From: Antedon mediterranea
Lineage: Eukaryota > Animalia > Echinodermata
DNA length: 64,000 bases
Assembly: GCF_964355755.1 (NCBI RefSeq)
Contig: NC_092678.1
Coordinates: 19,237,365 to 19,301,364, forward strand
Direction: 5' to 3'
A program made the translations under genes and the position numbers. The notes beneath the pieces were generated by a model, which saw only the letters and a program-made list of their open reading frames with translations, ran no database searches and was not told the origin of the DNA. Shown piece by piece: positions 2,291-63,483 of this stretch (positions are counted from its first letter, which is position 1; the number at the start of each line of letters is the position of its first letter).

Positions 2291-2295
2291 CTATA

Positions 2296-6501: not shown

Positions 6502-7179
6502 TTTAAAATAAAGTCCAAAATTGAGAAAAACTTGATATCATAGAGGGTGCTATACATAATGATAATGTGACAGTTATAAGACATCTAGGTATCCCTGGTG
6601 CGTAATCAGGCGTAGAATATAAAGTGAATTACGCGTTTGTTTTATGCGCACAGTTTTAAGTGACAAATATTTATTATCGCATAAATTATAATCCTACAAA
6701 ATACAAATTCGAAGGGGATATTAAACTTGGAACCAATTGTTACGGAATTAGTATAACATTTAATGTACAAGACGATATACTAAAATCAACAATACTAACT
6801 AGAAGTATGCCTAACTATACCATCAGATAATGAATGTTTTATGTTTGTACAATGGTACAAGTAATTGCATTTGGTGAAAGTTTCTATTTCACTTGGACTC
6901 GCTCCAGGAAAATTTAACCTTTTATCGTTCCTCTCAAATTATTTTTACCATTGCATTGATGAAAAAAGGCAAGTAGAAAAATATGGAATGTTTTGTATTA
7001 GTGCAATGGTACAAACATTTGCATTCAATGAATGGTTCTATTTTCATTAGGATTCGCCTCGTGAAAATATAACCTTTAATTTTTCACTTCATGAAATTAT
7101 TTTTACTATTGCACTCATAACCATTCATTATTTGTACTATCTAACATTAGCCTATTGGGTTGAACACAGCCATTTATAC

Positions 7180-7297
7180 AAATGCTAAAATAGCTAATAT
7201 AAAGATCCCTTTGGAACTTTGGATCTATTTGAACTTGGAGAACTAGAACAATTGTCTTCTTCAAAATTTCATTCTGGATATCAATCAAATTGTCCAA
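7180..7297 (-). pseudogene. Degenerate relic of a MOXD1-like terminal exon
   Basis: TTGGACAATTTGATTGATATCCAGAATGAAATT (LDNLIDIQNEI) plus CAAAGGGATCTTT and TTAGCTATTTTA match the last exon of the paralogs at 26797-26948, 40652-40804 and 56920-57072, with indels. Confidence 0.8.
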
Positions 7298-7298
7298 T

Positions 7299-9470: not shown

Positions 9471-9670
9471 TTAAATTAAATGTTTTCAAATATATATGGT
9501 ATCTAGGTTACAATTCAATGGGTGATAAGATATTTTTTTTTTCTATCTGCCTTCAAACTCTGACCTCAAATCATTGTTTTGCTTTGTACGATATTATCTA
9601 TTATGTCATAAATGTTCTGAAATAAGAATTATAACTTTTTATATAGTAAGCGGTACCTTCAAATTGATTA

Positions 9671-10531
9671 CCGTATATTTCGGTGTATAAGTCGCACCTG
9701 AGTATAAGACGCACCCCCAACTGAGAGTAAAATATCGGTATTTTTTATATCGTCGATGTATAAGACGCACCTTATATTTCATCAAAACAATTTTTTTAAA
9801 TTGTAATCAATATTATTGTGATAATATATTTTGTTATATCTACAACGGCGTCCTTTATTCAGGTTTTTTCTTACCTAGGCTCGGCCGCGCCCAGCCTCAA
9901 CAAGTTCTTTCTAACTTGTTATTCATGAGTTTCGCCGCAACATCGAGTGCATGACCGTGTGTGTAACACGCACGTGTGTGGGCTAGCCTCGCTCGATCAT
10001 TTCGAGAGGGCGCACGTTTTCACGGACAATCGTATTCGATTAGTATCTATGTATCCGAGAAGTGTGTACGCTAGGTCCATGCTATAATCACCTGGAGAAT
10101 ATACTACTCGAATACCGTACACCATGTGCCACCAAAAGAAGGGCTTGCGCTTGTGGTACGGCGATCGTGCGTATAACTACTGTATAAATAAATACTATTC
10201 CAATCGTACGACGTAAACGTTTACAAATGAAATTTTATCGGAGCGCCATAATGAACAAATCTTTTCATCATATTTAGTATAATTAACATCATGCTAAAAT
10301 GACTTGAAAACTAGGCCTAGGCTAGGCAGAAGCAGGTTGCCGTTACGTTAGTTAGTTACTGTAGCTAGGCCTAGCCTACTCAGGCCTAGCAAACGAGGTG
10401 ACGATAGCCTAGGCCTAGGCCTATGTACAATCTGTGTGGTGAGGCATTTATGTTCGGTGTATAAGACGCACCCTTAATTTGGAGGTCAAATTTGCGTGTC
10501 AAAAGTGCGACTTATACACCGAAATATACGG
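9671..10531. mobile_element. Tc2/pogo-like MITE, 861 bp
   Basis: Perfect 27-bp TIR CCGTATATTTCGGTGTATAAGTCGCAC, TA TSD at 9669-9670 and 10532-10533, internal TATAAGACGCACC subterminal repeats. Confidence 0.9.
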
Positions 10532-10538
10532 TAGTTAC

Positions 10539-13500
10539 AGTTTCCAGCTGTGTTGTAAGAGAACTGATTTGATTGGTTAGTTGAATACGTCCTTGTTCAA
10601 GCCTCTATAGAACAAACAAATTATAAACAATTTATGCAATATAGGTTTCAGAAGAAAGGTATTTCAAATTAGTTTTTACATAGAAAAAGACAAATTACTT
10701 TCTTCTCTCACCTGGTTAAGTTGCTCTGTTTGTGAAACCGTTTGTTTCAAGTTGAAGCATTCTGTGTCTGTTTTTTCAAGTAGTTGTAATAATTCATTGT
10801 TTTTAATCTGAAAGAAAATTGCAACTCTTTTACATCAACCATTTATTATTAATATTAACTGAATGCATTACATAAGTAACAAAAGAATGTATAATATATA
10901 GATATAATATATGTATGTATAATAATAAGTTTTCTATAGGCATGGTTGATTGCATGTAAAGCAGTGATTTGTATCAGAACAGATGTGACAATATTCAATA
11001 TTTTGTGTGGTGGCTATCGGTGCATGCATGAAATTCCTATACCTAATGTTAACAGTGTTTGAATCGACAAGGTTGACTGTGCAATCCTGTTGTCTTAAGC
11101 ACAGAGAAGTTGGAGCATGATCTCACATTAGAGGCATGTGCCGATAGAAAAAATAAGTTACGCATGGTTGAGTTTGCCGATAGTCACTTCCAACTAATTT
11201 ACCTGTAATTTCTTAACTTCATCCGTCAATGCCTCATTGATCAACACCTCATCGGACATTTTCTCGTCCACTATTCCTTCTTCATTTATAAACAATTGCA
11301 TACCAAGTGTGTTCGCTCTACCTTTTTTGGGTGTAGTGATCGTCTGAAAAATAGTTAAAATTGCATCTTAGGGGGAGCTTCATAATGTCCTCTACTACTA
11401 GGAGAATCATAGCCAGGTTTTTTTTTATGGTTCTGACAACCCCCCCCCCCCCCTAATTTACAGTGAACGCCCACCTGACAATCCACATAGTTAAAGTTCT
11501 TATAATCCGATGTATATGGCGTATAGTATAACTTTAGTAATCATTAATAATTGACAATTGGTTCAACAGTCCGATACACTCAGTGAGGCTCAAGGACTAA
11601 ATGTGTCATTTTTACTGTATTGTACTCCAAAGCCCATTGGAAAGCATCATTATCTATCATATTATGGTCACATACATTTAATGTTATGACACCAGTAATA
11701 GAGAGGTTTCGCAATCTTACGAATACGATAACAAAAACGGATACGTCACGCACACGTATTCGTTTTCGTAAACCATAAAAAAATCTGTTTCGAATGGCAA
11801 CGAAATATTGAGGCAAAATATGACTGCGGTAAATTTGAGCGAAGCGCAGGTACGTGTTGCTTGGTGCTTGGCTGCCTAGGCCTAGTGTAACATCAAAGTG
11901 AGTGAGGACTTTAAAAACTGCTATTATCAAAATTGACTTGGCATTTTAGTAAATTACTTTAGTAAATTACTTTTTTTCAATAAATCTTTAATTATATTAT
12001 TATAATCATGAATCATTCCCGATTCAAATGCAAAATGTGCAAAATAGATCAAAAACTATACTCGTTTTGTAGTTATGAATATGACTGGTGATATTCGTCA
12101 ACACGAATACGCTTTACGAATATGAAATGGGGATCAGCTCAAAAGTTTCACAAATGTATGACGTATCCGTTTTCGTTATAGTATTCGTAAGGTTGCGAAA
12201 CCTTGTTGAACCCACAAATGTGAAAACGCCCACAAATGTGAAAACAACCACAAATGTGAAAACGCATCACCCACAAATGTGAAAACAACCACAAATGTGA
12301 AAACGCATCACCCACAAATGTGAAAACAACCACAAATGTGAAAACGCATCAACCACAAATGTGAAAACGCATCAACCACAAATGTGAAAACGATCATCGC
12401 CCACAAATGTGATAACGCCCACAAATGTAAAAACAAGAGAGACTTTTTCGCCCACAAATGTAAAAAAATCAGATCAAATTTAATGCTAGATTCAGACAAA
12501 CATTATATCATGATTGTATTGAGTTGTTTGTTCACGATACGTCTGTTAGGGTCGTCGTTAACACGTTGGATTATATCATTTGCTGCTCGTGCGCGCGATA
12601 TTTGCACGTTAACTCGTTTGTTTAATCATGGAGGTATAAATATATACCTCCATGGTTTAATGAACGTAATAGTTCAAGACGATATTTGTTATTTGCTGCG
12701 CGCGTGCATGATACTTCAAGGTCAAGGCCATGTTATATCATTGTTGCTTCTACTGTGTGGTTGTTGGCTTACTATTATGTACGTATAGTTATAAGTCGAT
12801 GTTCGATATTTTTTTTTTGCGCGCACACGATACAACAAGGTCAAGGTTAAATTGCTACTTGTATGTAGTGTGTGGTTATTAACTCGTTGGCTTACTGTTA
12901 TGTACGTATAGTTCCAAGTCGATGCTCGATTCGATGTTTTTGGGCGCGTACACGATACCACAAGGTCATATATACTATTGCTACTTGTGGTTGATACTAC
13001 AAGGTCATATATCATTGCTGCTTGAAGTGCAGTTGGGCTTACTATATTAGTATTATGTACGTATTATAGCTCCAAGTCGATGCTCGGTGTACACGATACT
13101 ACAAGATCAATGCTATACTCGTCGTTCAGTTATTGCAGTGGTTCCTAAAGTTCAATTTTTTTACAAAACTATAACCACAAGATAATAATACAAGAGCTAG
13201 AGCAAGAACAACTAATAAAAGAATATTTCTTTATTTTAGAGCGATAAACAAATTGTAACATAGAATAATACCGTAACACCAATATCCAACCAAACATAAT
13301 ACACGATACGATAGTATCAAACTTGTCACGAACATGTATTCTATAAAACATACTATGAAATCTATAACAATTATACTAATGGACAAAACTTCCTACTATA
13401 GGCCTACTACTATTTACATTCGTGGTTTAATCTGATGCTTATTGTTTAATTTGTATATCTATTTTTAGCGGATAATTATAAAGATATACGGAGAATAATA

Positions 13501-16500
13501 TTACCTATTGAATGCATTACAATTTAACTGATTTACTATCAAACGTATATTCGACAATTTTTATGTATAATATAATTATAAGTAAATAAGTCAACGTACA
13601 AGGTATAACGGTATTGTTAATGAGGAACAAACTGGCTTCATGAATTACCTAACAAAATATTTAAGGAGGAGTTGCAATGCGATTAAATAATGTTATCTAC
13701 TAATAGTAGGCTTACACTTGATTGGAGATGCCTATAACACTAATTGTATGATGAGCATTAGAAGTCATAACAGTAAGCCAACGAGTTAATAACCACACAC
13801 TACATACAAGTAGCAATTTAACCTTGACCTTGTTGTATCGTGTGCGCGCAAAAAAACATCGAATCGAGCATCGACTTGGAACTATACGTACATAACAGTA
13901 AGCCAACGAGTTAATAACCACACACTACATACAAGTAGCAATTTAACCTTGACCTTGTTGTATCGTGTGCGCGCAAAAAAAAAAATATCGAACATCGACT
14001 TATAACTATACGTACATAATAGTAAGCCAACAACCACACAGTAGAAGCAACAATGATATAACATGGCATTGACCTTGAAGTATCATGCACGCGCGCAGCA
14101 AATAACAAATATCGTCTTGAACTATTACGTTCATTAAACAAACGAGTTAACGTGCAAATATCGCGCGCATGAGCAGCAAATTATAATAATCCAACGCGTT
14201 AACCACGACCCTAACAGACGTATCGTGAACAAACAATTATTGAAACAACTCAATACAATCATGATATAATGTAGTACCTCGATCAAAATTGTTTGAGTCT
14301 AGCATTAAATTTCATCTGATTTTTTTTTTTTACATTTGTGGCCGAAAAATTCTCATTTTTTTTTACATTTGTGGGCGTTATCACATTTGTGGGCGATGAT
14401 CGTTTTCACATTTGTGGGCGCTGTTTATTACATTTGTGGTTGATGCGTTTTCACATTTGTGGTTGTTTTCACATTTGTGGGTGATGCGTTTTCACATTTG
14501 TGGTTGTTTTCACATTTGTGGGTGATGCGTTTTCACATTTGTGGTTGTTTTCACATTTGTGGGCGTTTTTACATTTGTGGGTTCAACAAACCTCCCTATT
14601 ATGATGATGATTCACCTTAATTGTTTGCAAGTGTAGATCATTAATTTCATCTCTTTCCATCTTGCTGGTCAACTTGATAGCGATGAGAGCGTGCTGCAGT
14701 TCTTTGTTGGTTTTGCGCTCTGCTGCAACCTGTTCTTCTAACTGAACCTGCTTGTGTTTATGCAGCTCTACTTGTTCTGAAAGTTCTTGTTTAGCCTAAA
14801 AGTAATGTAAGTACATTTTCAATTGATCAACTAATGATGAGCATACTATTATTATTATTTTATTCTAGATTACCTCATCATATTATACTTTACTTTAACT
14901 ATGTAAACCATCCATTTAACACCCGATTTAATGACCCGTTTAATCTCTCGATCCCCTTTTGCTGTACGACTCTATCTCAAACCAATATAACATACCAAGG
15001 TCCCAAACTCTGGAATAAACTCCCAGTAAATATTAAGTCAATTTCATTTAGAACACAATTTGCCATCAAAGTCAAAGAACATTTAATAACCTTATATGAT
15101 GCTTAGTTTTTTTCTAGTTTTTTCTATTTAAAAAACAATAAACCAAAAATGTGTATAATACTCTTCTATTACTTATTTCATATTCATATTTATAATGCCA
15201 GTGAGTTATTAATTTTCATTTATGTAATTAATTTTCTTCAGATTTTTCTTTCTCAGAAATGATATACGTTCTAGTTTAAGTTTTATTTATTTTAAAAGGC
15301 CAAAACTCGATAAGCGAAAGCTTTTTTTTGGTCTTTTGTCTTTAGTTTTGATTTTATGTATGTGAAAAAGAACAAACAAGAAAGAAAGACAATACAGATT
15401 ATTAATTAGCGCTAATACAATTTGACAAACTTTCTGTTGAGTAAGTTTTCCACTAGACGAATTTATTGCGCATGCGTGTTAATATGTTCATCTAATTTTT
15501 GTAATGTGGAACAATGTGCAACCAATTATAATTTGAGATTTGCTAATGGAAAAGAGGCTTTAGTGGTTAGATTTCAGTGGTTGGGTGATTTCAAAACATT
15601 TCAAAACAGCTGCAGAATGTCAAAATTAAAATGGCACCTAACCTAACTGTTTTGGATTCAGCACCTCAGATATGACAAACTTGAAGAAATATGTTACTAA
15701 ATAAAAACAAGCAAACAAAATAAATAACAGTCTAAACTTACTGCAATTAACTGTGTGGTAAGTTTGTCTATCTGCGAACGAAACCGCTCAACAGTAGCCA
15801 CCGCTGTGTTGCCTTCTCGTCCCTGAGTAGCACTTGAGGGTGTGTTACCGGTCTTCTTTAATTCTTAAAAAAACAAACAAAAAGCATGACAGCAAAATAA
15901 GACAGCATAACATTGTTGCGAATTTATTTATGGAATGGTTGGAAAATGAGGCAATAACTACAGCTCACACCGACATAAAACCGAGGATGTGGAAAAGGTA
16001 TGTAGATGACATTATAACAATAATTCCCAAGGATGCGACACAACCATTATTACAACACTTAAACAAAATCGATGATGACATTAATTTCACTTGCGAAGAA
16101 ATGTCCTTAACAGACAACTCTATCTATACGCTAATTTTAGTTGATGGGGAAGGCAACATCAACACTAAAGTTTTTAGGAAAGCCACCCACACAAATCAAT
16201 ACTTGGACTTTAACTCACATCATCCTCTACAACACAAGTTATCCGTTATCCGCACACTTCTACACAGATGTAACACGATAATCACAAATAATGCAGACAA
16301 ACAGAACGAAACTGAGATGATACATACTTCACTTAAACAATGCAACTACCCTACATGGACGATTAGAAAGGTACAACGTAACCTAGATAAACAAAAAACG
16401 GACAAACAACCCGAAACAGAAGATATAAGAGGGTCGATATCCATCCCATATATTCAAGGCCTGTCAGAGAAAATCAAGAGAACATTTAAAAAATATAACA

Positions 16501-19500
16501 TACGAACATACTTTAAACCATCTAACAAAATTAAAAACTTAATCGTCCGACCGAAAGATAAAGCATGCAAAGAGGATTCCTGTGGTGTCGTCTACAAAGT
16601 GGGGTGCACCAACTGTGAGATGGTGTACATTGGGGAAACGGGTAGGGCACTCAAAACCAGAATTAAAGAGCACAAGAAAGATGTTGAGGAAAACACACAG
16701 AACATGCAGACGCGTGCATCACGGAAAGTTTCGTCCTCCATTTTACATAAATCAGCAATCACGGACCATATGACCACACACAACCACATACCTAACTGGG
16801 ATAAGATAGAAGTACTACACAAAGAACAAGTTTGGCTTAAACGTAAAATTAAAGAAAGCATCAGCATAAGAAAGCAAAATAAAAATACAAAGATGAATAG
16901 AGACGAAGGCGCGCACCAACTATCTCACATTTACGATCAGCTTCTGACGACGACTGGTCCCCTAGGCTACACAACAAAATCATCTAGTGGCTGGAAAGGA
17001 GACCAATCGGCGCCATAACGCATCATAGCAACTGAAGAAGTCAAGCTGACAGCTAGACGAAACTGTCTTGCCAACGTAAGTTTTATTGGTTTACTATCAA
17101 AGAACTACTTATATTAGCATAACATGTTGTTGTTAACATTTTCCGTCTTCCGACATTACGCTTTCCACAATTTGTTTCCATTTTTTTCTGTTTATGGCAG
17201 GATGGTTTGTTATTGTGTTAGTGTCTACTAGTCCTTGTAAGTCTTTCTTTATTTGATTCATCCAGTTATTTCTTGGTCTTCCTACGGGTTGTTTTACTTT
17301 CCTGTTAGTTTCTTTCATTGTTTGTTTCATTGGGGTATCATCCGGTAATCTAATTATGTGTCCATACCATTTTAGTCTCCTTCGTTTAATTCTTTTACTC
17401 CATTCTTCTTGTTTTGTTATCTCGTATATTTTCGTGTAACACACTCTATCTGTTAATTTAATATCTATCATCTTTCGCAACATTTTCCTGTGATATATCT
17501 ATACTCTCTTGTAATTTTTTGTTTAGTACCCAGAGTTCACTGTTATATAAGAAAATACTTGCTATGTATGCGTCAAACAAACGGGATTTCACGTCTATAG
17601 ACATCGTTTTGTGTTCTAGCGACAACTTCAGCTTGTTATATGCCATAGCTGCTAGTGATTTTCTTCTTTTAATGTCTTTTTCTGTGTCCAAGTTACTACC
17701 GAGGTATTTGCATTCTTCCCATTTACTATCTTCTGTTTTACTTTCGTTTATCTTTAGATTGAATTCTAATTTCTCGGTTACATTTTTCTTTATTTTAGTT
17801 ATGTGTTCTTTTGAGTCGCTAATAAATGAAATGTCATCCGCATACTGCATCTGGATATTAAGCTGTTGTATGGGTAGTGGTGTTGTGTTTGCTGATTCGA
17901 GTGCCTTTGCTACAGTAGGTAAAGTGTGAACAGTATCGGAGACATACAGTCACCTTGTGGTACTCCTAGTGTAGTAGTAAACAATTTTCCTGTCTGTTTT
18001 CCAATTACATTGTTGATGAACATGTGTAGTTCATCATCTTGTAATATATGTGTCAGATGTCGAATAGAGTATTCCTCCGCACAGTGTCAAATGCACTGGT
18101 CATGTCAAGTAGTAGTAATATTATTTCGTAGTTCGATGACGCCTTTTCTGCTAACAAGGCCGCGTATCGCAGAGGACGAAGCACTACCGAACATGTACAC
18201 CCATGCAAATGTTAGCATAACATGCAATAAAAAAACTATAACCTGGTTAATATACTATATATCCTGGTTAAAATACTATACCCTGTTTAAAAAACTATAG
18301 CCCGTTTAAAAAACTATAACCTGGTTAAAAAACCATAACCTGGTTTAAAAACTATAAACTGGTTAACTACATACCATCAATCTCACTAGTAAGCTCTTGG
18401 AACTGCTTTTGTAGTCGTTCTTTATGCTTCAATGTTTCTTCTTTTATATTTAAAAAAGTATCCGATGCCTGTAGGGCCTTCAATTCTGATCGTAAGTGCG
18501 AGTTCTCCATTGCAAACTTTGCAACGGTTGGGTTATGCTCTGATTGGTGTTTTAGATGCCCAATCTCTTTCTGTAGATCCTCCTATTTTGTGATAAGATT
18601 TATAAAACATCTTTAAGGCCAATTTACGCAGACGAGAGGTAAAGGTAGCTTGTAGTCTAAAAATTATTATGCGCATAATCAGAAACGTCATGTGTGTGCA
18701 TGTGCAACTGTATAAAAAACTACTGAAATTTTATATGTACCACAATTTTTTATGACTATTGAAATTAATCGGACTCTGTAGTGATATGCTTAAATATGGT
18801 AGTGATATAACATCATCATATCCATATATGGGCACATCACATTTTTTGTCACATAAAGTTTGATAATGTAGACAGAGCTTAACACTCAGCTTGCCAACAA
18901 CAATTTCATTCAAACTGCAGAGGAACTCTGAGGAACAATGTTCATTAACTGAAGAATGTCTGCAACCAGACATGATACCAGAAGAAGCCTTACAATCCTG
19001 TTGTCTCTGTCGTCTAATGTCAATTTCTCCTTCTGCGCTTCTTGAAATCTACTGAGGGCACTCTCTCGCAACTTAATCACCATCTTGTTTGACATCAGAA
19101 AGTTATCCTTTTTTATACACAAGTTCTGAAGCTGTGAAATTTTTCTTGTCAGTGTCTAAATAGAAAAAAATGTGTATCATGAAAAAGAAATGATTCAGAT
19201 AGGCAGTGTGGCACTGTAGCTTGGCAGGAAATGTCATTCCTTTTAATCACAAGGTGTTAGTTCAATACTTTCCTAATCCTTTTCTGTAACTTACAATTGT
19301 GAGGAGTTTAGAAAGGATGGGTATTCTTGTAATTGGTGGGTAAATGTTGGATGAGGGCTAAAGTAAATACAAACTGAGAAGCCTTACTTTGTTAGCCATG
19401 TCACTTTTCTCCCACAAAAGCATAGCCCCAAAGAAACATGTCTGCCATTTATTGGTATCACAACCCTTAGTAGAAACTGGTGCAATCTCTGCATTTAAAA

Positions 19501-21088
19501 AAAATAAAATAATTTTTTTATTAATTCATTTAAAATACAACAAAAGTAGTAAGTAACACAAAAATGGATAAATGTTTTTTTTTGTATGGTTTGGTGTTGG
19601 CCTGACCTGTGTTATCGACTAGATTAGTGGGGATTACACCAGATGAATATTGACTAAGCTGATCCTTGAGCCTCTTAATCTCAGCATGTAGCTGTACCAC
19701 ACTACCTTGGGTATCTTGATTTATCACAGCCTATAGGATAAAAAAAACTAATAGATTAAACAACAGAATGAATAAACGCATTTTTGTATTATTTAAGACT
19801 GCCTGCATAAAATGGAAAGTGGTGTACAGAAAATTTACTTTATGTACTTACCCGGTTTTTAATCATTTTAGCTCTTCTTGCAAAATTCAAAGTTGATATT
19901 GTATCACCAATTTGACTAAAAAAACACACCAGAAGACATTGTGTCCGGTAATTTTACTCTTTGTAATAATATTTGTTAAGCACACATATTCACCAAAGTG
20001 CTCAAGCTTAGTTATTTACCTTGGTAAGGACCTTGGTAAGTTTTTTCCTACCCATCATAACTGTACCCATGAAACCAACTTACTGGGTAAATAACTATGT
20101 CTAAATGGGCCCTAAAAATGTATTGAAAATAAATATAGCAATGGAAAATAATATTAATTATTATTAAATAAAATTAGAGATAAATTACCGAGAACCAGGA
20201 TGAACATTTGCAATTATAAACGTCTTTGTGTTGCCACCTAATGCATCCTGAAAATGATAACAAAAACAATAATTACATAGTTTTTTTGATTTTGGTCTCG
20301 ACTATTTTTTTCGGTCTTCATTCTAACTAAGTTCATTATTAAAAGTTCAACATACCCTCAGAAGAAAGCTAAGTTTTGACTCCCTGTATGGCACATATCG
20401 ATTTTTTCCTTGCCCGATATCAACAAGTGCTGTGATCACGCGGCCTAACACCGACAATGATGAGTTAATACTGCCTGCCTCTTTTATTCTTGAACCAACT
20501 GCCTGCGTATCCTTCTGACGTTCACTGCCGGCTAAATCCACCATGTGTAGATGAGATACTCGAAGGTTGCTCACGTTTCCTTGTTTTTCCTTAAATAATA
20601 AATTTTTTTTAAATAATCAAATAAATTAATAATACATAAAAAAGCTTAAAGACAATACTCTTTAGTAGTATTAATTGATACATCAATATCCTATGATAAT
20701 ATTATTTATTTGTCAAGCTCAGTATATCAAAACTCAATGTGATGTTCCCATGTCATATCACTACCATATTTAAGCATAAAATTAAGCCCTGTCAACACAA
20801 TCAATTCAAACTTTATATGACAAAAAAAAGGTGACATGCCCATATATGGACATGATGATCTCATATCACTACCATATGTTGGCAAATCTTCTCTTTACAT
20901 CCGTACTCCACTCAATCTCTCCTGTTTTTTTTATACAAATCTTAATGGAATAAACTACATTCATTGCGTAAATATGAATACTATACCTTTTTTTCAATAG
21001 ATACAGTGAAGATGGCGTGACTCCTAGAACTTTCACGGTTCATTGATGTGGCAGCAACTCGACGGTTCAACCATCCTCTACACAAAAC
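10539..21088 (-). CDS. KIF15: Kinesin-12 / KIF15-like protein, partial (13 exons, about 549 aa: second half of motor, neck and proximal coiled coil)
   Basis: Exons 21088-20987, 20589-20356, 20247-20189, 19915-19852, 19730-19607, 19488-19388, 19155-18994, 18582-18387, 15863-15742, 14795-14616, 11343-11203, 10807-10712, 10604-10539; all GT/AG, phase-consistent and stop-free. Contains switch I (MNRESSRSH), switch II ([12 protein letters not shown]), [20 protein letters not shown], and KIF15-typical [32 protein letters not shown] and ITTPKK. No P-loop exon and no C-terminal exons found. Confidence 0.9.
11697..14600. mobile_element. MITE with about 60-bp TIRs, interrupted in its right TIR by a foldback element
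   Basis: AATAGAGAGGTTTCGCAATCTTACGAATAC...GGATACGTCA (11697 onward) is inverted at 12158-12203 plus 14594-14600 (…GGTTGCGAAACCT|CCCTATT). Superfamily not determined. Confidence 0.75.
12204..14588. mobile_element. Foldback-type non-autonomous DNA transposon (TGT...ACA ends, 5-bp TSD; Ginger2/TDD-like)
   Basis: Ends TGTTGAACCCACAAATGT / ACATTTGTGGGTTCAACA; TSD AACCT at 12199-12203 and 14589-14593. Inverted arms of about 700-800 bp whose outer parts are CCACAAATGTGAAAAC tandem arrays. No transposase ORF. Confidence 0.85.
14870..15385 (+). mobile_element. 3' fragment of an L2/CR1-group LINE
   Basis: ORF 14834-15106 contains H.FNTR...[22 protein letters not shown], the typical ORF2 C-terminus of this group, followed by an AT-rich 3' UTR. 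Confidence 0.7.
15905..17115 (+). mobile_element. 5'-truncated Penelope-like retroelement (RT C-terminus plus GIY-YIG endonuclease) in a KIF15 intron
   Basis: ORF to 17018 has [54 protein letters not shown]...RIKEH, SAITDH and MNRDEG. AGCATAACAT occurs at both ends (15904 and 17117). Confidence 0.93.
17028..17071 (+). ncRNA. Minimal type I hammerhead ribozyme motif at the Penelope 3' end
   Basis: GCAA-CTGAAGA-AGTC(AAGCTGACAGCTA)GAC-GAAA-CT-GTC-TTGC: CUGANGA and GAAA core boxes, stem I GCAA/TTGC, stem II GTC/GAC, GUC cleavage triplet. Minimal hammerheads are known in Penelope-like elements. Confidence 0.7.
17125..18125 (-). mobile_element. Decayed RTE-like LINE 3' portion, tail-to-tail with the Penelope element
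   Basis: Frameshifted RT pieces [45 protein letters not shown] and GRPRNNW; (AAC)n tail near 17125. Confidence 0.85.
18230..18366. repeat. Minisatellite, about 20-bp unit (AAAAACTATAACCTGGTT) x about 7
   Basis: Directly visible tandem copies. Confidence 0.85.
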
Positions 21089-21439
21089 CTACAACAAATA
21101 ATATAAAGTGTTGACATAGCTAGTTTCTAAAGTTATGAATAAAAGTCGTATTCATTTCTAAAATAAATTTATTAGTAAAAATATGATGAAATTAATTTAA
21201 AAAGCTTAAAATGGCTACAATTATACCAAAAATAAAGACTTAACTAAGCTAACATTTAAAAAAAATGCAAACCAACAAAGGTCAGTAGCATTTTCAAATA
21301 TTTCTTATGGTATAAATTTGGTAAGTTTCTAAGATTAAAACTAATAATGTATTTATTTATATAGCACAAATTATGTGTATATATATATATATATATACAC
21401 ATAATATATAAATCCAAAGGCAAATTACTGAAAAAAATG

Positions 21440-22010
21440 ACAATGCTGTGTACTCTAGTAGCTAGATCAACTTTCGTATGAACTTTGAGGTCCAGAGAAT
21501 TTGACTTCAGAAATTGGTTTAGGGTGGTCAAACAATCATTTTTGGCTTGGTTACACATTTTGAAAATGTGGCGAAAGGTCAAAAGGTCAGGGTCAAAGGT
21601 CATAAGACCAAACACCAATATGTCTTAAATCTCAACAACCACTGGTCACAGCGAAGTAATTTTGGTCTCAAATTGATCAGAAGGTATACATTTATACTCA
21701 GTTTAATGGGACATTTTAGTTAAAAATGACCGGAAATGACATTTCTGACCTTTGACCCACAACCCAGGGCATGTATTTATCTCCGTAACTACTGGTCGTA
21801 GACACTTGAATTTGGTTTTAAATATATATTTTGTTATTTGTGACACATTTTGAAAAACGTTACAAAAGGTCAAAGGGTCAGGGTCAAGGGTTATATGAAC
21901 AAATAAATAAAGGTACTTGTATCTCGGCAACCACTGGTCGCAGCAAGTCAATTTTGGTCTCAAAATGCTCAGAAGGCATGCATTTATATTCCGTCTAATG
22001 GGGCATTTTA
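21440..22010. repeat. Diverged tandem repeat with GGTCAAAGGTCA motifs (about 290-bp period)
   Basis: ACACATTTTGAAAA...GGTCAAA.GGTCAGGGTCAA...CAACCACTGGTC...TTTTGGTCTCAAA...TAATGGG.CATTTTAGT occurs at about 21553-21720 and 21843-22012. Confidence 0.7.
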
Positions 22011-22013
22011 GTA

Positions 22014-22770
22014 AACAAGGCCAACAGCCATTAAGTCGCGTGCTACAATGCATAGTGATACCGGACCGACATACAGACCGATAGACAGACCAACCGACAT
22101 AGTGAACTATACTGACCGAAATTACTGAACATGTTTAAAAATGTTGAAATGTTTAAAAACATTTATATTTTTTTAATTTACACGTGCGTAGCCTGTCACT
22201 TTCGACGTGCTCGTATAACGTAATTTCGAGTTGAAAAGTAAGTCAAGAAAACAGAAATCGGGCAAAGAGAGTGCGTAATAACATTTAACGCGCAGTGCGC
22301 ACGCAAAAATATGCGCACTCATGGCAATTTTGTAAACGCTTAAAATTGCCTGAAATGTACTCTTATTTCATCGAAAATAAATTTTGAAAATGTTAAGCGC
22401 GCGTACGCATGCGTTACATGCGCTACGCACGTAATTGTATTGCCATATGATGATTTATGCCCTGAAATTTATGAGTACCAAATTTTATTTAATTGTGATT
22501 CATGGTTGTGAAGATATGATTACAAACGTGATTTCGTTAAATCGTGCGTAGACCGCGTAATTTTTTATTGCGCACCGTGAAAACATAACCACATTGATTC
22601 CTGGCCATAAGGAATATACTGTGAAAAATTGACCTAGCTAGATTAAACTGATATCAAGATAAGGTCAGAAAGCGATAAAACGCATAGTGATACCGGACCG
22701 ACAGACAGACAGACAGACAGACAGACCGACCGACATAGTGAACTATAGAGTCGCTTCCACGCGACTAAAA
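22014..22770 (+). mobile_element. Helentron/HINE-like non-autonomous element, copy 3
   Basis: Same orientation as, and near-identical to, 8630-9405. Confidence 0.78.
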
Positions 22771-24149
22771 ATATAAGGTGGAGGAGCCTAAAAGAAAGCA
22801 AAGCTTGTGGTGAATAGGCTCCTCAAAACAAAAATAATATAACACAATTAGAAACTCCAAAAAAAACAATTTAACTAATATCTTTTCTCTAGCACATAAG
22901 TTTAACATGTTGACATAATTACATGTTTATTTGTTTTACTGATTACCTGATACATTTAATGTTAAATGTAAATAAATGAAACGGTATTGTAGACACAGAA
23001 ACAAAATGGTAACCAGATTCATTGTCATAATGTTTATTTGTTTTACTGATTACCCGATAAATTTACATTTAATGTTAAATTTAACTAAATGAAACGGTTG
23101 TAGATACAGTAACAAAATGTAACGGATTCATTGACGTATAATTATATACAGGCCTCGAATTTTACCGCGGCCACTACTTTTCGGTGCCCTCCCTGTTGGC
23201 CTCAATGCCCTCGAAAATGAACAGCACCCACGGCCATTACTGGCCTGGCCCTTTTTTTTTTTGCTTTGGCCGTGAGTGCCCTTCCTGTACACGCACGCTC
23301 TGGTGTAGTCCATTATACGTGTAAAATTAGGACTGTCCACTTTTAGTTATACACGCACCTCAACCCGAAGATCGTTGGCAGTATATTATATTTTATCACA
23401 CCCACCTCAATAATCCAGCCGACAGATCATCAAAAAATCTTTTTTAACAACGTCGTACACTAGATTAGCGAACGCGTTTTTTACCCAACTCAATATTATA
23501 TTTTTTATTTGTAACTGGAATAAAAACTCATTTCTTTATATACTTTCTGTATCTATAAACCTGTTAAATCTATACATTATTCAATATCCACCCTAGGGAA
23601 TCCACCTAATATCCATATTAGGGAAGGATACCTAAAAAAGTATATAGTCTAGAAATAAAGAGCCATAATATACTGTTAACTTTAAAACTGCAATTATTTC
23701 TGCAGCGTGCGCAGGGCGTAGTTGTTTTTCCTTCCTCTGAAACATAATGCACTCAACAAAATAACAAAAGCAGCATTATTTTAACACATTAGCACACTCA
23801 AATAATAAATGGGACAATCTTTGTTCTGTATTGTTCTTTGTAGTTTGTACTGTATGTTGCATAACAGAACAATTGTATTCAATAATAGACACCCTACTCT
23901 ACATAAAACTTAATACACCACACCCCAGTCCATATAAGTCAAGGCATAGAGATATTATAATATCTCTATTGGTTTTATACTTTTATACAAATTTTAATAT
24001 TGAGAAAAGGTAAATATCTTTGTAATTCAGCTAAGGCTGCGATAATGATATTGAAATAAATGAAATTAAAAAAAAAAAAAAAAAAAAAAAGTTGTTGGTC
24101 TTAATGTTGAAAATGCAAAGGATTATAGCATTGGTATAATAATGCTTAC

Positions 24150-24434
24150 CGAAATGAATGATGTACCATCAACAACCCAAGCCATCATAATGTCGGCTCC
24201 TTTCATTCCTCCATTGCTGTTAAGACCAATCCCAACGTAGCCTGTTGTATTCGCACGAACCTCGAATATAATTGTATCATCTTCAACTTTGCAAAATAAT
24301 TGAACGTTTTCCTCGCTATCAAGAAACACATTGTGATTGAATTTCATCTCACCAAACACACCAAGAGTGCAGAAAAAGAAAACCAGAATACGCGACATTA
24401 TCAACGAAAAAAAAATCGATGAACTTCGTTTCAT
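24150..24434 (-). CDS. Orphan exon 1 of a MOXD1-like paralog (copy A): signal peptide plus N-terminal half of the DOMON domain
   Basis: Open 95-codon exon MKRSSS...GYVGIGLNSNGGMKGADIMMAWVVDGTSFIS|GTAAGC, nearly identical to exon 1 of copy B. Has a W>C change (LFCKV vs LFWKV). No MOXD1 exons 2-12 follow downstream. Confidence 0.8.
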
Positions 24435-25309
24435 GAACAGTTCAGTAAGATCAGCCAGTAAGAAGTACAGTAAACAACGTATAAGATTTAACTAACCTTG
24501 ACAAGCCTTCGGTCTTGATGTTAGTGAGCTTTTGCATCGTGGCGGACGTAGAAGAAAGGAGATCGAAAAAATGCGCATGCGTATTAGCCAAGTATACGTA
24601 CCAAGTCGAGTAACACGATACAAACAAACGGACAACAGCGGTTTATTTAAATTTAACAATGCTTCACGCGGTTCCAAAGACGATACAATAGTAACGTATG
24701 ATTACTTATGGTCTAATGGCTATAGGTATATTAATATAGGCACTTGATAAATTAACAAGTAAGAAAATCTTACTTTTTATATATATCTTATTTTTCCGGA
24801 GACGCTTGACCTATTAAAACATATTACAAATGTTTTTATATTACCTTACTTTTTGTGATAACCGTATTTGTTGAAACGATTCCGTTATGACACAAGGTAA
24901 ATCATCAACGGTGAACAGTTTAACACCCCCAATTACAAATGCTGTTTCAATTACTTTTTTTCCAAAAAATTAAAACAACACCTAATGTCAAACTATTAAA
25001 AAGACAACGATCGAATGTCGCAATTTGATTTATGCTGCTGAACATTGATCTACTGTGGTTTTTGAGTTTTATTTACTGATACTAAAAATTGATTGATCTA
25101 TTTTTTTTCCCTGTGTGTGAGTTTTTTTTATCATGCTTGTTTCTCTTAATTTCCACTCTTATTCACATATCCATTATAATTGCATAGACATACCCAGCAC
25201 AAGATTCCGTCATCTTCTCGGGATTATGCCTTCCTCCATAGCCAATTTTTTTAAAATTCTCTTTTCTTTTGTCCATCCAACAATCATCATTATCATTATT
25301 ATTTTACTT

Positions 25310-26452: not shown

Positions 26453-26796
26453 TTATTCTTTTACCTCATATCATTTCTGTATTTTATTTTGTATTGTATT
26501 GCTATGGAAGAAAATAAATGTTGTTTGAAATGAAATGAAATAGTGAAGGCTCTAAATATATCGTTTATACAAAATATATATTCAAGTGACGTGAAATGAA
26601 TGATGGTCCAAAATATCTTTTTTTTTCCGATATGCAACGCGCAAGCTCCGCTTTTTTTTTTTTAAACAAGTTGATCTGCATATGCGTGAGTAGGCCTACA
26701 ATCGCCAAACGAAAACATTACCGAATGCCGAATGGTATCGAAACACGGAAGAATAGATAAATGTGCGCAGAATAATTATGAAGACTAAAGGTAAGA

Positions 26797-27408
26797 TTAT
26801 ATTAACGGTAAAATAGCTAAGATAAACACTGTAAACAAAGATCCCTTTGAACTTGACGAACGGGAGCACTTGTTTTCTTCAACAATTTCATTCTGAATGT
26901 CAATCAAATTGTCCAAACTTTTGTCTCAACATAACCATATCTTCGCCCCTTTAAGAAAAATAGTATAATACTTTCTAACAAAATTGTGCCCAATAAGTTT
27001 TTAGATAGTAATGTTTTATTTTCTACGGGGTGGAGACATTTATTTTACCAACACAAATGCAAAGTGTTGACTGCATATATTAATAGTAACAATTGATCAA
27101 ATTAGGCCTAGCGCCTACTTTCCATATTCATAATTTTAGAAAAGCTGAAAAGTGTTATGAAATCAGAAGGGAAATGTCGTCGATAATTGCAGTCCTAGAA
27201 TTTCATTTTAAGTATATCCCTCAGGCAAACTGTATATAAACATTATAACCATACCTCCTCTACAAATTAATCCTCGTGAAATGCATTGTGACCAGAATGG
27301 TTTGAACAATAAGACATACGGGGCGCTTCTTTCCACCACTTTCTTAACATATCCACTCTTTCCTTTGTCCAATCTAACTCTTGTAAAGCTACACGGAAGC
27401 TTTTGTTC
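26797..27408 (-). pseudogene. Decayed extra pair of MOXD1 terminal exons (C/D-type exons 12 and 13)
   Basis: Exon 27408-27255 matches C/D exon 12 but has GAA>TAA at 27267-27269. Exon 26948-26797 is 152 nt versus 153 nt in C and D (1-nt deletion). Splice sites are retained. Confidence 0.88.
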
Positions 27409-27983
27409 CTAACATCAAGGAAACGGGAAGGAAAATGCTATTATGATAACTTATTAACATAAGCGCTAATTTTTTTTCTCTTTTGTGGGGGCAACCCACT
27501 TTTATTGCAATGATAAACAATATGGTGATGGTTACAGTATATATGTCTATCTATCTATTTATCAATGAATATTTAAGTGATATTACACAGACAGAGGTTA
27601 AAAGATTATATAAAATATTTTGATATTGTGTTGAAATCTAGATAAAACAAACATGTATACAGAGAAAATTTATATTACAGAGCTAAAACGATATAAAGAT
27701 TGATATTCAGTATTAAAAAGAGATTCGATATAATATAAATATATATGATAAAATGGTATTGCATTATAAGATTATATAGTCAGACTTCAATACAATTTCT
27801 GTTCACCTCCTGAAGTATTTACATCCTTTTTTAGTCTTTAAAATAATGTAAAACGTTTTATAATATTTTATATTTGTGCAATGGTCCAATTAATTTTATT
27901 TGGTAAAAGACGAATTATTCTCATGACATTATTTTGGACATTCAGTATTTTGTGTGCTATTGGATATTTTAAGTTGAACACTA

Positions 27984-30900
27984 TCAATATGTTACGAAAG
28001 TGCTATAAATAGATAACATAACGACGATAACTAACGATCCCTTCAAACCGGTGGACTGAGAACATTTATCTTCAAAAACAATTTCATTCTGAATGTCAAT
28101 TAAACTTTCCAAACTGCCTGTCTTTATGTAACCATCATCATCAGCCTAAAAAAAACAATTTTTAATCGAAAGGTCCATTTTGTGTTAAAGTTAAGAATGT
28201 TGGTCATGACATTTCACTTGAAATTGAACATTGAACATATTATGTTAAAGATATATTGTCCTCCTGAATGGTTATTTTTTAAATTTTTTAAAAAATATGC
28301 CATTTTGATGGTGCATAATATTTATTCACTTTGACCAAAAAAATATTTACATGAAAAACTGTAATTTAAGCACAAAATAGTAAAATTGGTTGCCATGCCA
28401 GCAAATGAGTTTTGTTTAAATTTAACTGTTTGTTTTATTTTTTTCTTTCTTTTATTTACCCATAAATATAAAGTAAACATTGTAAGATAAATAAAACATT
28501 TTCGTAAGTGAAACATTAGTTTTTTTCTGCGAAAATGAATAACTTTATTAAAACGAAAAAATAGCCCATTCAAAGTCTGATTTATTAATCTTTGTTTTTC
28601 ATATTTTTGGGAGACAATACATCTTTAAAGTATTGTTTAAATTGACAGCGGATGCACATGCGTAATTAGCATGTTCTCGTACCTCTTTAGGGAATGCAAT
28701 GTGACCAGAATAGTTCGTACAATACGAAATACGAGGCGCTTCTTTCCACCATGCCTTCACAACATCTACTCTTTCCTTTGTCCAGTCAAAATCTTGGAGT
28801 GTTTCGCGCAGTGTTTTGTTTCTTTTTTAAAAAAGTAGAGAAAGGAAAAAATACAATCAAGCTTTAAACTCTAATAAATGCCTAAAATTATCGCCATGTT
28901 ACCTAACACATGGAGGAAATATATCCTAATATAAAGCAGTTATTTTAGTTTAAATGTGATAAGCTGCAAATAATTTTATATAAAATTATATTCTCTCTAA
29001 GTAAATTGATTTTTTTTACTGTAGTTTGTTTTTCTCACGAGCGCCAATAGCGGGCTTTCTGTTGATTTGACTCGAGTAAAGGTATGGCACTCCATATGTT
29101 CCACAATAACTAGAATCTTGCGTGTACGATAGCTAGCTCTTAACGTAATTTAAAACATATGAAAAGATGGCAATGAAGATAGGGCCGTGAAAATAAAAGA
29201 CATTTACAGTAACAATATTTTAAACGAAACGTTAAACCTACCGCTCTTATTTGAAACTAACAACTCGATTCAAGATGTAACCGGTACAACGGATGTTTTC
29301 ACTGAAGACTGTTCAATATTTCAAAGACATGGTCTAAGTATTTTAAGTCTTAACATTGTTTCACTTATAGGTAATTTTGACAATTTTAAACACATTATAG
29401 AAAATAATGAAATTGATGTTATATCTTTAAATGAAACTCGCCTTGATTATACTATTAGTAATAATGATGTACGTATAAATGGCTATGATCTCTATCGTAA
29501 AGATCGTAACAGGGAAGGTGGAGGAGTTGCTGTGTACTTAAATCGCAACGGGAAGACTACTCATAAGTTAAGACCAGATCTTATGAATGAACATTTGGAA
29601 ATGTCTATTATTGAAATTAAACAACTAAATTCAAAACCATTCCTCCTTTTATCATGGTATAGACCCCCAAATTCTGATATGCAGATCTTTGAGAGAATAG
29701 AAAAAGTACTAGAGAATGTTGAAAGTACAAATTTAGAATATATGATAATTGGGGATGTAAATTGTGACACTCATTCTAAAAACCTATCTTGTTATACTAA
29801 AAAATTAATTGATATTGCTAAAAATTTTCATCTAACTCAATTAATAACTGAGCCAACGAGAATCACAGAAAATAGTAGTACTTTAATAGACCATATTTAC
29901 ACAACAGTTCCTAATAGTATCTCCAAATCAGGTGTTTTACATACAGGTATCAGTGACCATTCTGCTATCTATGTAATTGTTGGTAAACAAGAAAAGTGTA
30001 AAGCTCATAAGCATAAATATAAAACAAGTAGAAACTACAAACATTTTAATGAAAATGAATTTAAAAGGGATATTGAAAAAATAAACTGGCAAGAAATTCA
30101 ACATTATAATGATATTGATGACGCTACATATTTTTTCGAATCTAATTTTCTTAAAATTGCTAATGATTATGCCCCGCTAAAAAAGAAGAGGGTGCGAAAC
30201 AAAACTAGTCCTTGGCTAACAGATGATCTAGTTAGGTCTATGCGTGAGCGTGATGTACTAAAAAAGAAAGCATCTAAAACTAATACACCTGAAATGTGGG
30301 CTCAATACAAACTAAGTAAAAATAAGGTAAATGCTGAAATAAAGAAATGTAAAAAAGAATATTTTTCTAAACAATTAGATACAAAAGATTCAAAGAAAAT
30401 ATGGGAAACTTTAAGATATATTGTCCCAGCAAAGAGTATAAACACTGAAATATCAAACTTAAAAACAAATGATAACAAACTAACAGCAGACTCTTCTAAA
30501 ATAGCCAACAATTTAAACAAATATTTTTCTAAAATAGGACCTGACCTTGCAAAAAACATCCCACCAGAAATTCCTAGATTACTTATTGTAAATAATACTA
30601 ATCAAAGTAGGGACCTACTTAAATTTAGTTTTGTTAATCAGGAATATATTTATAAACAATTAAACGCACTCGATGTTAGTAAAGCGACAGGCTTAGATGA
30701 GCTTCCAGCTAAAATGCTTAAGTTGGTTATTGATCAAATCGTTGGACCTCTCACTTATTTGGTAAATCTCTCACTCTCAACCAGTACTTTTCCAAAAAGA
30801 TGGAAATGTGCCAAAATATGCCCAGTGTTTAAGGGGGGAGATAGGACTGAAGCTAGCAACTACAGACCCATATCAATTTTACCGATTCTTTCTAAAATTA

Positions 30901-62900: not shown

Positions 62901-63004
62901 ACCACAGACTTAACACCCCGGCGTTGAGGGCCATGGTATACTGCAGTCTGTCTGCTATCAGGATCATCTGGATGATAGGACCAGATTACCCTGACTGTAT
63001 CAGA
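56920..63004 (-). CDS. MOXD1: MOXD1-like copy D, exons 3-13 (exons 1-2 expected beyond the window end)
   Basis: Exons 63004-62825, 62084-61998, 61823-61653, 61451-61349, 60557-60391, 60244-60187, 59715-59591, 59119-59060, 58860-58730, 57963-57810, 57072-56920. Exon lengths and phases match the paralogs; HH, H, HxH and EMC copper ligands are present. Confidence 0.92.
57100..57481. mobile_element. MITE (Harbinger-like TIR) in intron 12 of copy D
   Basis: AGGCCCATTTACAC / GTGTAAATGGGCCT with extended inverted similarity; empty site CTAACAA in copy C (40831) and the relic (26974). Confidence 0.82.
60800..61225. repeat. 37-bp minisatellite x about 11 (about 3.5 copies at 49265-49385 in copy C)
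   Basis: Unit GCCATCATAGAATACAGCATAACAGATTGTAACTAGC/T. Confidence 0.92.
62555..62692. mobile_element. PIF/Harbinger-like MITE
   Basis: TAA|AGCGTGGTTCCCACTA ... TAGTGGGAACCAAGCT|TTA (TWA target); empty site TATCAGTTAATAATAAC at about 50650 in copy C. Confidence 0.82.
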
Positions 63005-63200
63005 CTTTGAAATTAAAAAAAAATCATTAAGTCGTCTGCAAAATATTTAAAATGTAAAGCTAGTAATTTAAATAAATGTGATTGCGTGTTCCTAGTAATT
63101 CGCATAAATGCAAAAAAAAACAAGCACGAATGTGCAATACTCGGGGTACAGCGAAAGAAGCTGTATACAGACGTATACAGTTAGAAAGTAAAGAAAAATA

Positions 63201-63271
63201 GGTTTCGCCAGGGCTCGAACCGGGACCTTCTGCGTCTTAAGCAGACTTGACAACCACTACACTACAAAACC
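63201..63271 (-). pseudogene. tRNA-Val-derived pseudogene
   Basis: GGTTTTGTAGTGTAGTGGTTGTCAAGTCTGCTTAAGACGCAGAAGGTCCCGGTTCGAGCCCTGGCGAAACC: tRNA-Val body with A and B boxes, anticodon AAC>AAG and stem mismatches. Confidence 0.75.
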
Positions 63272-63483
63272 TCTTACATTAAAAATGTGGGTTACAGAAA
63301 GTGTTTTAATCCATTTAAATTACAAATAAATGGTAATAAGCACAAAGCAAAATAAACATGTGTAAAAGTGATAATTACCGATTACACAAAATAAGTATTT
63401 TAAAAAATAATAAAAATAAGATATACTCTGTATAATTATCATATTGCGTATACAGTACTTTTCACCATAAAGTTAAAAAAAAA

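What the first reader, a model, noticed from the sequence alone, without database searches (positions are those of the whole stretch)
10539..24434. Candidate chimeric gene: MOXD1 promoter and signal-peptide exon spliced in frame to a headless KIF15 kinesin
Seen: the orphan MOXD1 exon 1 (24434-24150) is open, keeps its upstream region and ends at a phase-0 GTAAGC donor. The next exon I can recognise on that strand is the KIF15 exon at 21088, which has a phase-0 acceptor (TTGTAG|GTT TTG TGT). Joining them gives one ORF of about 95+549 aa: signal peptide, half a DOMON domain, then kinesin switch I/II, neck and coiled coil. All 13 kinesin exons are stop-free. Known: KIF15 needs about 210 upstream residues including the GQTGSGKT P-loop, and I find no such exon in the window. 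Inference: either a young fusion gene that would route a motor-dead kinesin stalk into the secretory pathway, or an unexpressed rearrangement, or the real KIF15 5' exons lie beyond 64 kb with the MOXD1 array nested on the same strand inside a KIF15 intron, which would also be unusual.
Basis: partly seen in the sequence, partly recalled or inferred. Interest (0 to 1): 0.78.

Follow-up and report, generated by a model that had tools for sequence, protein, structure and literature searches.

The report
Stray KIF15 fragment behind MOXD1 exon
In a feather star genome, the middle of the cell-division motor gene KIF15, cut off at both ends, sits in frame behind a leftover first exon of an unrelated secreted-enzyme gene; the intact KIF15 lies on another contig and splices normally, so this is likely a decaying duplicate rather than a working fusion gene.

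Summary
The arrangement is real. An orphan MOXD1 exon 1 (24434-24150) lies 3.06 kb upstream of 13 KIF15 exons. All joins are GT-AG and give 95+553 residues without a stop.

The kinesin part is not the animal's KIF15. It covers residues 200-774 of a 1378-residue RefSeq KIF15 (Antedon mediterranea). That protein lies on a 28.6-Mb contig, while the window's MOXD1 genes lie on a 26.1-Mb contig. A spliced public contig joins the 21088 exon to KIF15's own upstream exon, not to MOXD1, and carries parent letters at 12 of 12 listed sites.

The copy is decaying. Another exon has lost a conserved motif, and invariant residues have changed. It shows about half the parent's contig depth, a hint that it is on one homolog only.

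So: a partial, inter-chromosomal, intron-retaining duplicate that landed in a MOXD1 array. This is a potential chimeric duplicate of a well-known kind. The nested-gene idea is refuted. Transcription of the fusion is untested. The surviving reading frame leaves a modest chance (about 0.15) of a translated, secretory-routed chimera.

The parts
56923..64000 (-). MOXD1 copy A (5' end outside the window)
   Evidence: Encodes residues 87-517 of P0264 (XP_071959951.1) letter for letter
40655..55478 (-). MOXD1 copy B
   Evidence: Encodes all 370 residues of P0265 (XP_071959950.1) exactly; further 3' exons follow
27987..37991 (-). MOXD1 copy C, with a LINE-like reverse-transcriptase ORF on the other strand (29163-32141) in a late intron
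   Evidence: tblastn of P0267; Pfam RVT_1 and Exo_endo_phos
26533..27472 (-). Extra, broken copy of the last two MOXD1 exons and their 3' flank: start of the partial array unit that ends in the orphan exon
   Evidence: Self-blast; in-frame stop and frame break in tblastn
24435..24902 (-). Upstream (promoter-side) region of the orphan exon, conserved with copies B and C; activity untested
   Evidence: 84-90% identity to the upstream regions of B and C; alignment
24150..24434 (-). Orphan MOXD1 exon 1 (copy D): predicted signal peptide plus first half of DOMON; phase-0 donor; W48C and P92S unique to D among the window's copies
   Evidence: similarity to copy C ends at 24138, 12 nt into the intron
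21282..24137 (.). Repeat-filled stretch that holds the MOXD1/KIF15 breakpoint; includes a high-copy 770-bp element at 22005-22772
   Evidence: the parent-type intron matches the window only up to 21281
21089..21281 (-). KIF15-derived intron remnant with phase-0 acceptor
   Evidence: Two parallel versions in DNA-type contigs
14616..21088 (-). Ten KIF15 exons, parent residues 200-651: 21088-20987, 20589-20356, 20247-20189, 19915-19852, 19730-19607, 19488-19388, 19155-18994, 18582-18375, 15863-15742, 14795-14616 (switch I, switch II, neck, first coiled coil)
11203..11343 (-). Strongly diverged KIF15 exon: 16 of 47 residues differ and 16 parent residues are missing, all in frame; conserved YxLRxR motif lost
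10712..10807 (-). KIF15 exon, parent residues 715-746
10532..10604 (-). 5' part of the last KIF15 exon of the fragment
9669..10533 (.). 863-bp DNA-transposon-like element, 29-nt perfect terminal inverted repeats, TA duplication, inserted inside the last KIF15 exon; supplies an in-frame stop
9657..9668 (-). 3' remnant of the split exon (to parent residue 774) and its true donor
7122..7297 (-). Degenerate MOXD1 last-exon remnant: MOXD1 sequence lies on both sides of the KIF15 fragment
   Evidence: 68-76% identity to last exons of copies A-C

Best explanation
This is a partial, intron-retaining copy of KIF15 (residues 200-774 of 1378) that likely moved by a DNA-level duplication from another chromosome into a tandem MOXD1 array, landed behind an orphan MOXD1 first exon, and is likely decaying without a function.

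Shown:
- The copy is truncated at both ends; the full-length parent is annotated on a different contig.
- The parent splices to its own upstream exon.
- A transposon sits in the copy's last exon, and conserved residues are lost.

Inferred:
- The insertion replaced or displaced the body of MOXD1 copy D.
- The in-frame join is luck, since both introns are phase 0.
- The block is present on one homolog only.
- If the MOXD1 promoter fires, the product would be about 656 residues: signal peptide, half a DOMON fold, half a motor fold and coiled coil, ending in the transposon. It would enter the ER, probably misfold and be degraded, and could not hydrolyse ATP.
For: Parent elsewhere:
- P0003 (XP_071959413.1) is 1378 aa with GQTGSGKT, on a 28,587,047-bp contig.
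- The window's MOXD1 A and B encode P0264 and P0265, on a 26,055,566-bp contig.
- No parent residues 1-199 or beyond 774 are in the window.

Splicing:
- X1 record 3 runs from 21061-21090 into 30 shown letters that read LVSSPHDAYQ|VLCRGW, as in P0003. They are not in the window (best match 19 of 30).
- 0 of 3 X1 records laid on 20900-21360 join MOXD1.
- X1 record 1 is spliced (19155-18993 joined to 18581-18420).
- X1 shows only the non-window letter at 12 of 12 listed KIF15 sites. All 8 amino-acid changes implied by the listed letters, 7 of them seen in X1, give the P0003 residue.

Two DNA versions: mean contig depth window-exact / other / unrelated is 155/314/289 in X2 and 19/51/53 in X3 (from rows shown).

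Decay:
- Exon split by a transposon.
- Outside exon 11343-11203, 20 of 506 residues differ; the parent matches more of the 11 outgroups at 12, the window at 2, 6 tie. V225I and E335D hit columns invariant in 11 of 11.
- About 11 replacement to 12 silent differences in 610 nt fits a neutral copy (P 0.14) better than two constrained copies (P 0.006).

Annotation: no protein matches either part.
Against: - The frame survives through 12 exons and part of the 13th with all 25 splice dinucleotides kept. A rough neutral estimate gives 0.02-0.15 at 1-1.5% divergence and 0.05-0.1 indels per substitution, and lower at higher rates.
- The indels in exon 11343-11203 are all multiples of three.
- The upstream region, ATG and donor of exon D are intact.
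- The one RNA-like run is from another sample and is shallow (depth 5-9), so it may not carry or express this allele.
- Contig depth is not a formal copy number, and the ratio varies from 2.0 to 4.0 between runs.
- At residues 686-691 the window resembles outgroups more than the parent does, which simple decay does not explain.
Confidence: 0.72

Rival explanations
1. A young, translated chimeric gene: the MOXD1 promoter and signal-peptide exon splice to the KIF15 fragment, and selection keeps the frame open while the sequence diverges, giving an ER-routed or secreted coiled-coil protein that ends in the transposon.
For: In-frame phase-0 join, 648 codons without a stop, all GT-AG. Neutral survival of the frame is unlikely-ish, about 0.02-0.15. 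Only in-frame indels. Intact upstream region. Four N-glycosylation sequons and no second hydrophobic segment. Pairwise dN/dS about 0.32.
Against: 0 of 3 X1 records at the acceptor join MOXD1, and no window-type letter at 12 of 12 listed sites. No annotated product. Both folds are cut in half. Transposon in an exon. W48C and P92S in exon D. Half depth suggests the block is not fixed. The finding was picked because the frame is intact, which inflates the frame argument.
Confidence: 0.15
2. The KIF15 copy is real but its placement next to MOXD1 exon D is an assembly join error across the repeats at 21.4-24.1 kb.
For: No listed contig bridges 21365-24140; the stretch is filled with high-copy repeats.
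Against: Window-exact contigs on both sides have the same low depth (21067-21364: 119/18/3.6; 24342-24750: 152/21/3.9 in X2/X3/X4). A MOXD1 remnant also lies beyond the other end of the fragment at 7297-7122. The sequence lies on a 26-Mb contig.
Confidence: 0.06
3. The fragment is the remains of a longer KIF15 paralogue, or a mosaic with an older copy, that was constrained for a while and was cut down later; the MOXD1 adjacency is incidental.
For: Exon 11343-11203 is far more diverged than the rest yet keeps outgroup-like residues at 686-691; open frame; the depth ratio of 2.7-4 in X3 and X4 could mean further copies.
Against: Introns and other exons are only about 2-7% from the parent; no second long KIF15 from this species among 895 hits, next best 50% identity (best 120 listed).
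Confidence: 0.05
4. This is the functional KIF15 locus, with its 5' exons beyond the window and the MOXD1 array nested in one intron on the same strand.
For: No 5' exons in the window, and DNA beyond 64 kb could not be read (no genome held).
Against: Full-length KIF15 is annotated on a contig of different length. It differs from the window at 36 of 553 aligned residues plus 16 missing. Spliced contigs carry parent letters. The window copy also lacks its 3' exons over the remaining 9.6 kb and has a transposon in an exon.
Confidence: 0.02

Closest known systems
Chimeric gene duplicates formed by fusing partially duplicated fragments (definition in PMC3449122; 78 and 38 segregating cases in Drosophila yakuba and D. 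simulans in PMC4069613; passages read)
   Same: Two genic donors, DNA-mediated, breakpoints in introns, 5' gene gives promoter and targeting signal; probably polymorphic, as most such duplications in PMC4069613 occur in single strains.
   Different: The donors are on different chromosomes rather than adjacent; it joins a secretory leader to a cytoplasmic mitotic motor; no transcript is shown here.
KIF15 / kinesin-12 (P0003; sea urchin KRP180, PMC2175202, passages read)
   Same: Switch I, switch II, neck and first coiled coil; about 96% identical to the parent outside one exon; best PDB matches are human KIF15.
   Different: No P-loop, no residues 1-199, no C-terminal 600 residues including HMMR_C (1254-1355). 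In PMC2175202 the C-terminal coil acted as the dominant negative, while the homologue of the N-terminal coil is described as a negative control; the fragment keeps only the latter region.
MOXD1 / DBH-like monooxygenase (P0264, P0265, P0267)
   Same: Exon 1 with predicted signal peptide and first half of DOMON, upstream region and donor.
   Different: Second half of DOMON and both copper monooxygenase domains are absent from copy D.
Partial duplicates that gained function: SRGAP2C, Hun, notothenioid AFGP (table in PMC3449122)
   Same: Truncated copy of a conserved gene in a new context.
   Different: Those have shown expression and function; here neither is shown and the copy carries signs of decay.

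Membership tests
Functional kinesin-12 (KIF15) motor | P-loop GxxxxGK[T/S] and N-terminal half of the motor | tested here: not met
   Six-frame motif scan and tblastn of parent residues 1-205 find none
Functional kinesin-12 (KIF15) motor | Switch I (SSRSH) and switch II (DLAGSE) | tested here: met
Functional kinesin-12 (KIF15) motor | Long stalk with C-terminal HMMR_C region | tested here: not met
   Fragment ends at parent residue 774; HMMR_C is 1254-1355
MOXD1 monooxygenase | N-terminal signal peptide | tested here: inconclusive
   Hydropathy peak 2.75 over residues 16-26; no dedicated predictor available
MOXD1 monooxygenase | Complete DOMON plus two copper monooxygenase domains | tested here: not met
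   DOMON profile 3-58 of 124 only; no further MOXD1 exon between 24138 and 7297
Chimeric gene duplicate | Built from duplicated parts of two or more donors, at least one genic, with both parents retained | tested here: met
   MOXD1 copies A-C in the window; KIF15 parent on another contig
Chimeric gene duplicate | One reading frame across compatible splice sites | tested here: met
   648 codons, phase 0 to phase 0
Chimeric gene duplicate | Transcript spanning the junction | tested here: inconclusive
   0 of 3 records in one shallow RNA-like run from another sample
Chimeric gene duplicate | Purifying selection on the chimera | tested here: inconclusive
   dN/dS about 0.32 on 23 differences; invariant residues changed; frame kept
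Same-strand nested gene | Host's upstream exons lie on the same chromosome and splice across the nested genes | tested here: not met
   Full-length KIF15 is on a 28.6-Mb contig, the array on a 26.1-Mb contig; spliced contigs carry parent letters
Processed retrocopy | Loss of introns | tested here: not met
   12 introns within the fragment; intron sequence shared with the parent version

The most novel reading that the evidence does not exclude
A still-segregating, translated chimeric gene in a feather star that uses a MOXD1 promoter and signal peptide to send a motor-dead KIF15 coiled-coil fragment into the secretory pathway, with its stop codon supplied by a transposon and one exon being rapidly remodelled in frame: a new secreted protein caught at birth from a mitotic motor.
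Probability: 0.15. Interest if true: 0.6.

Novelty: new member of a known kind. Interest (0 to 1): 0.27.

Why it matters
As a decaying partial duplicate it is ordinary. Partial and chimeric duplicates make up a large share of young duplicates in animals (PMC3449122, passages). It does warn that unannotated, nearly intact KIF15 exons here will capture reads and mislead gene prediction. If it is transcribed and translated, it would be a rare case of a cytoplasmic motor fragment rerouted to the ER by a borrowed first exon, apparently still polymorphic. One could then compare carriers and non-carriers and watch a chimeric gene before fixation or loss. A search for papers holding both KIF15 and MOXD1 gave 4 papers with one mention of each and unrelated titles (listing only).

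Tried and rejected
- Whole-genome search: no genome is held, so the parent's exons, further copies and DNA beyond the window could not be read.
- RNA holders: no RNA holder on record is listed; X1 is only guessed to be RNA, though it holds exon-joined contigs.
- Holes in cover: X1 has no cover at 24480-24793 and X5 none on the window-type intron 21284-21360. These holes prove nothing.
- The wide lay was swamped by repeats: 15 of 214 joints and 40 of 172 variant rows were shown, so it cannot exclude a 24150|21088 joint. Only the narrow lay bears on the acceptor.
- X1's contig on MOXD1 exon 1 runs through GTAAG into unlike sequence with 9 differences in 194 nt. It is an unspliced paralogue (B and C each differ from D at 7 places there), not a transcript of D.
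- First exon coordinates were off and gave false stops; corrected.
- The D-versus-C comparisons used a wrong coordinate and were discarded; redone.
- A true dN/dS could not be computed without the parent's DNA. The 11:12 split is inferred from difference counts per contig and from protein differences.
- The open frame at 7930-7628 has no Pfam match and only Atlas leads under 0.9.
- No fold or complex prediction was run: the spliced product is not a contiguous window protein, and a model would not decide expression.
- Earlier findings of this scan: none near, none by words, one unrelated.
- Paper searches were seen as listings; three papers were read as passages; no supplements were opened.
Full report
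What is in the window. The minus strand carries a tandem array of MOXD1 (DBH-like monooxygenase) genes, then KIF15 exons. Copy A encodes residues 87-517 of RefSeq P0264 and copy B all 370 residues of P0265 letter for letter. Both are Antedon mediterranea proteins on a 26,055,566-bp contig. Copy C is complete in exon content. Behind it lies a partial unit: broken last two exons, spacer, upstream region and exon 1 (copy D). Its similarity to copy C stops at 24138, 12 nt into the intron.

Checking the observation. Exon D (24434-24150) and 13 kinesin pieces join at GT-AG sites into 648 codons without a stop; both sides of the fusion intron are phase 0. Exon D gives a hydrophobic leader and DOMON profile positions 3-58 of 124. 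The kinesin exon 20589-20356 best matches human KIF15 among solved structures. No P-loop exon is present. One claim fails. The 'donor' after 10539 is coding sequence: an 863-bp element with perfect 29-nt terminal inverted repeats and a TA duplication is inserted in the exon, which resumes at 9668 and follows the parent to residue 774. As the DNA stands, the frame ends 8 codons after 10539.

The parent. A search with one exon found P0003 at 99% identity. It is a 1378-residue KIF15 with GQTGSGKT, on a 28,587,047-bp contig, hence not on the window's contig. The window holds only residues 200-774; nothing of 769-900 is found by tblastn in 1-10600 apart from the short remnant above. Of 553 aligned residues 36 differ and 16 parent residues are missing. 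Twenty differences fall in the 506 residues outside exon 11343-11203; against 11 deuterostome KIF15 proteins the parent's residue is the commoner at 12, the window's at 2, and 6 tie. V225I, E335D and P695S change columns invariant in 11 of 11, and the YxLRxR motif is deleted. No protein of 30-756 residues resembling the fragment closely is in the collection (best 120 of 1843 hits, top identity 70%). No protein of 168 or more residues starts with exon D (3 hits among 34 candidates, best 88%).

Reads. Five runs hold part of the region; none is on record as RNA. X1 nevertheless has exon-joined contigs (record 1). In the narrow lay, 3 X1 records fall on 20900-21360. One is a chance repeat match and one covers the exon. 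The third leaves the window at 21090 into letters that read LVSSPHDAYQ then VLCRGW, exactly P0003's junction, and that are not in the window. At 12 of 12 listed KIF15 sites X1 shows only the non-window letter, and the implied residues are those of P0003. So the spliced KIF15 is the parent. X1 is another sample and shallow, so this does not test the fusion in carriers.

Copy number hint. In runs X2-X4 (one sample) two versions of exons and introns run in parallel. From the rows shown, mean contig depth is 155 (6 values), 314 (7) and 289 (4) for window-exact, parent-type and unrelated contigs in X2; 19 (5), 51 (5) and 53 (3) in X3; and 3.9 (4) and 15 (2) in X4. Contig depth is no formal copy number, but it suggests a parent at ordinary depth and an extra copy on one homolog. 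The parent-type intron matches the window only to 21281, so the 5' breakpoint lies in the repeats between 21282 and 24137; no listed contig bridges them.

How it likely arose and works. Shown: an intron-retaining KIF15 segment, cut at both ends, sits between MOXD1 exon D and a degenerate MOXD1 last exon at 7297-7122. Inferred: a DNA-level copy from another chromosome was inserted into the array and replaced or displaced the body of copy D. Same-orientation copies of a 770-bp high-copy element flank it at 22005-22772 and 8630-9405, 94% alike, a possible but unproven handle. If the MOXD1 upstream region still drives transcription, splicing from 24150 to 21088 would give about 656 residues entering the ER with two half-folds and no ATP site; degradation is the likeliest fate (inference). 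In sea urchin the dominant-negative part of the orthologue KRP180 was the C-terminal coil, which this fragment lacks (PMC2175202, passages). Little selection against the copy is therefore expected.

Against my reading. The frame and 25 splice dinucleotides survive; a rough neutral estimate is 0.02-0.15 at 1-1.5% divergence and 0.05-0.1 indels per substitution, and smaller at higher rates. The finding was, however, selected for being intact, and one exon is in fact disrupted. About 11 replacement and 12 silent differences in 610 nt give dN/dS near 0.32. This is compatible with a neutral copy beside a constrained parent (P 0.14), not with two fully constrained (0.006) or two neutral (0.006) copies. 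Exon 11343-11203 is unexplained: much more diverged than the rest, only in-frame indels, and outgroup-like at 686-691 where the parent is not.

Comparison and verdict. It meets the structural definition of a chimeric duplicate (PMC3449122, passages), a class that segregates by the dozen in Drosophila (PMC4069613, passages). It is not a functional kinesin-12, not a MOXD1, not a retrocopy and not a nested arrangement. A search for papers holding both gene names gave 4 with single mentions and unrelated titles (listing only). Verdict: new member of a known kind; decaying duplicate 0.72, translated chimera 0.15, misjoined assembly 0.06, older paralogue remnant 0.05, nested gene 0.02; interest 0.27.

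Noticed in passing
window 11343-11203 (-): Exon far more diverged than its neighbours, with only in-frame indels; outgroup-like at parent residues 686-691 where the annotated parent differs. Possibly a mosaic with an older KIF15 copy.
   Followed up: partly
window 7957-7285 (-): Exon-like pieces of an unknown gene (ATG at 7957 with a stop at codon 9, donor at 7658; exon 7501-7418; acceptor near 7330) leading into the MOXD1 last-exon remnant. No Pfam match, Atlas leads under 0.9.
   Followed up: partly
window 49007-48843 (-): The RefSeq model of MOXD1 copy B stops at 370 residues although its later exons are present down to 40655; copy B may be broken here.
   Followed up: no
window 22005-22772, 8630-9405, 5719-6509: High-copy 770-bp element with internal GTCT/CAGA microsatellites; two copies flank the KIF15 fragment in the same orientation. 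Resembles Helentron-associated DINE/HINE elements (recalled, not tested).
   Followed up: no
window 12203-14589: Foldback-like element with 800-bp inverted arms (88% alike) and short tandem repeats, inside a KIF15 intron.
   Followed up: no
window 15831-17015 (+) and 17136-18200 (-): Tail-to-tail retroelement fragments in one KIF15 intron: a 395-codon frame with a weak GIY-YIG match (Penelope-like, label recalled) and a broken RVT_1 frame.
   Followed up: partly
window 29163-32141 (+): 993-codon open frame with endonuclease and reverse-transcriptase domains in an intron of MOXD1 copy C; looks recently inserted.
   Followed up: partly
window 58729-58860 and 44239-44370 (-): This exon is identical at protein level in copies A and B, within a 90% alike segment; suggests recent duplication or conversion in the array.
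   Followed up: no
P0264 versus window: The first exon of copy A lies outside the window; a further MOXD1 paralogue (P0267, 596 aa) on the same contig is not encoded in the window, so the array is larger.
   Followed up: partly
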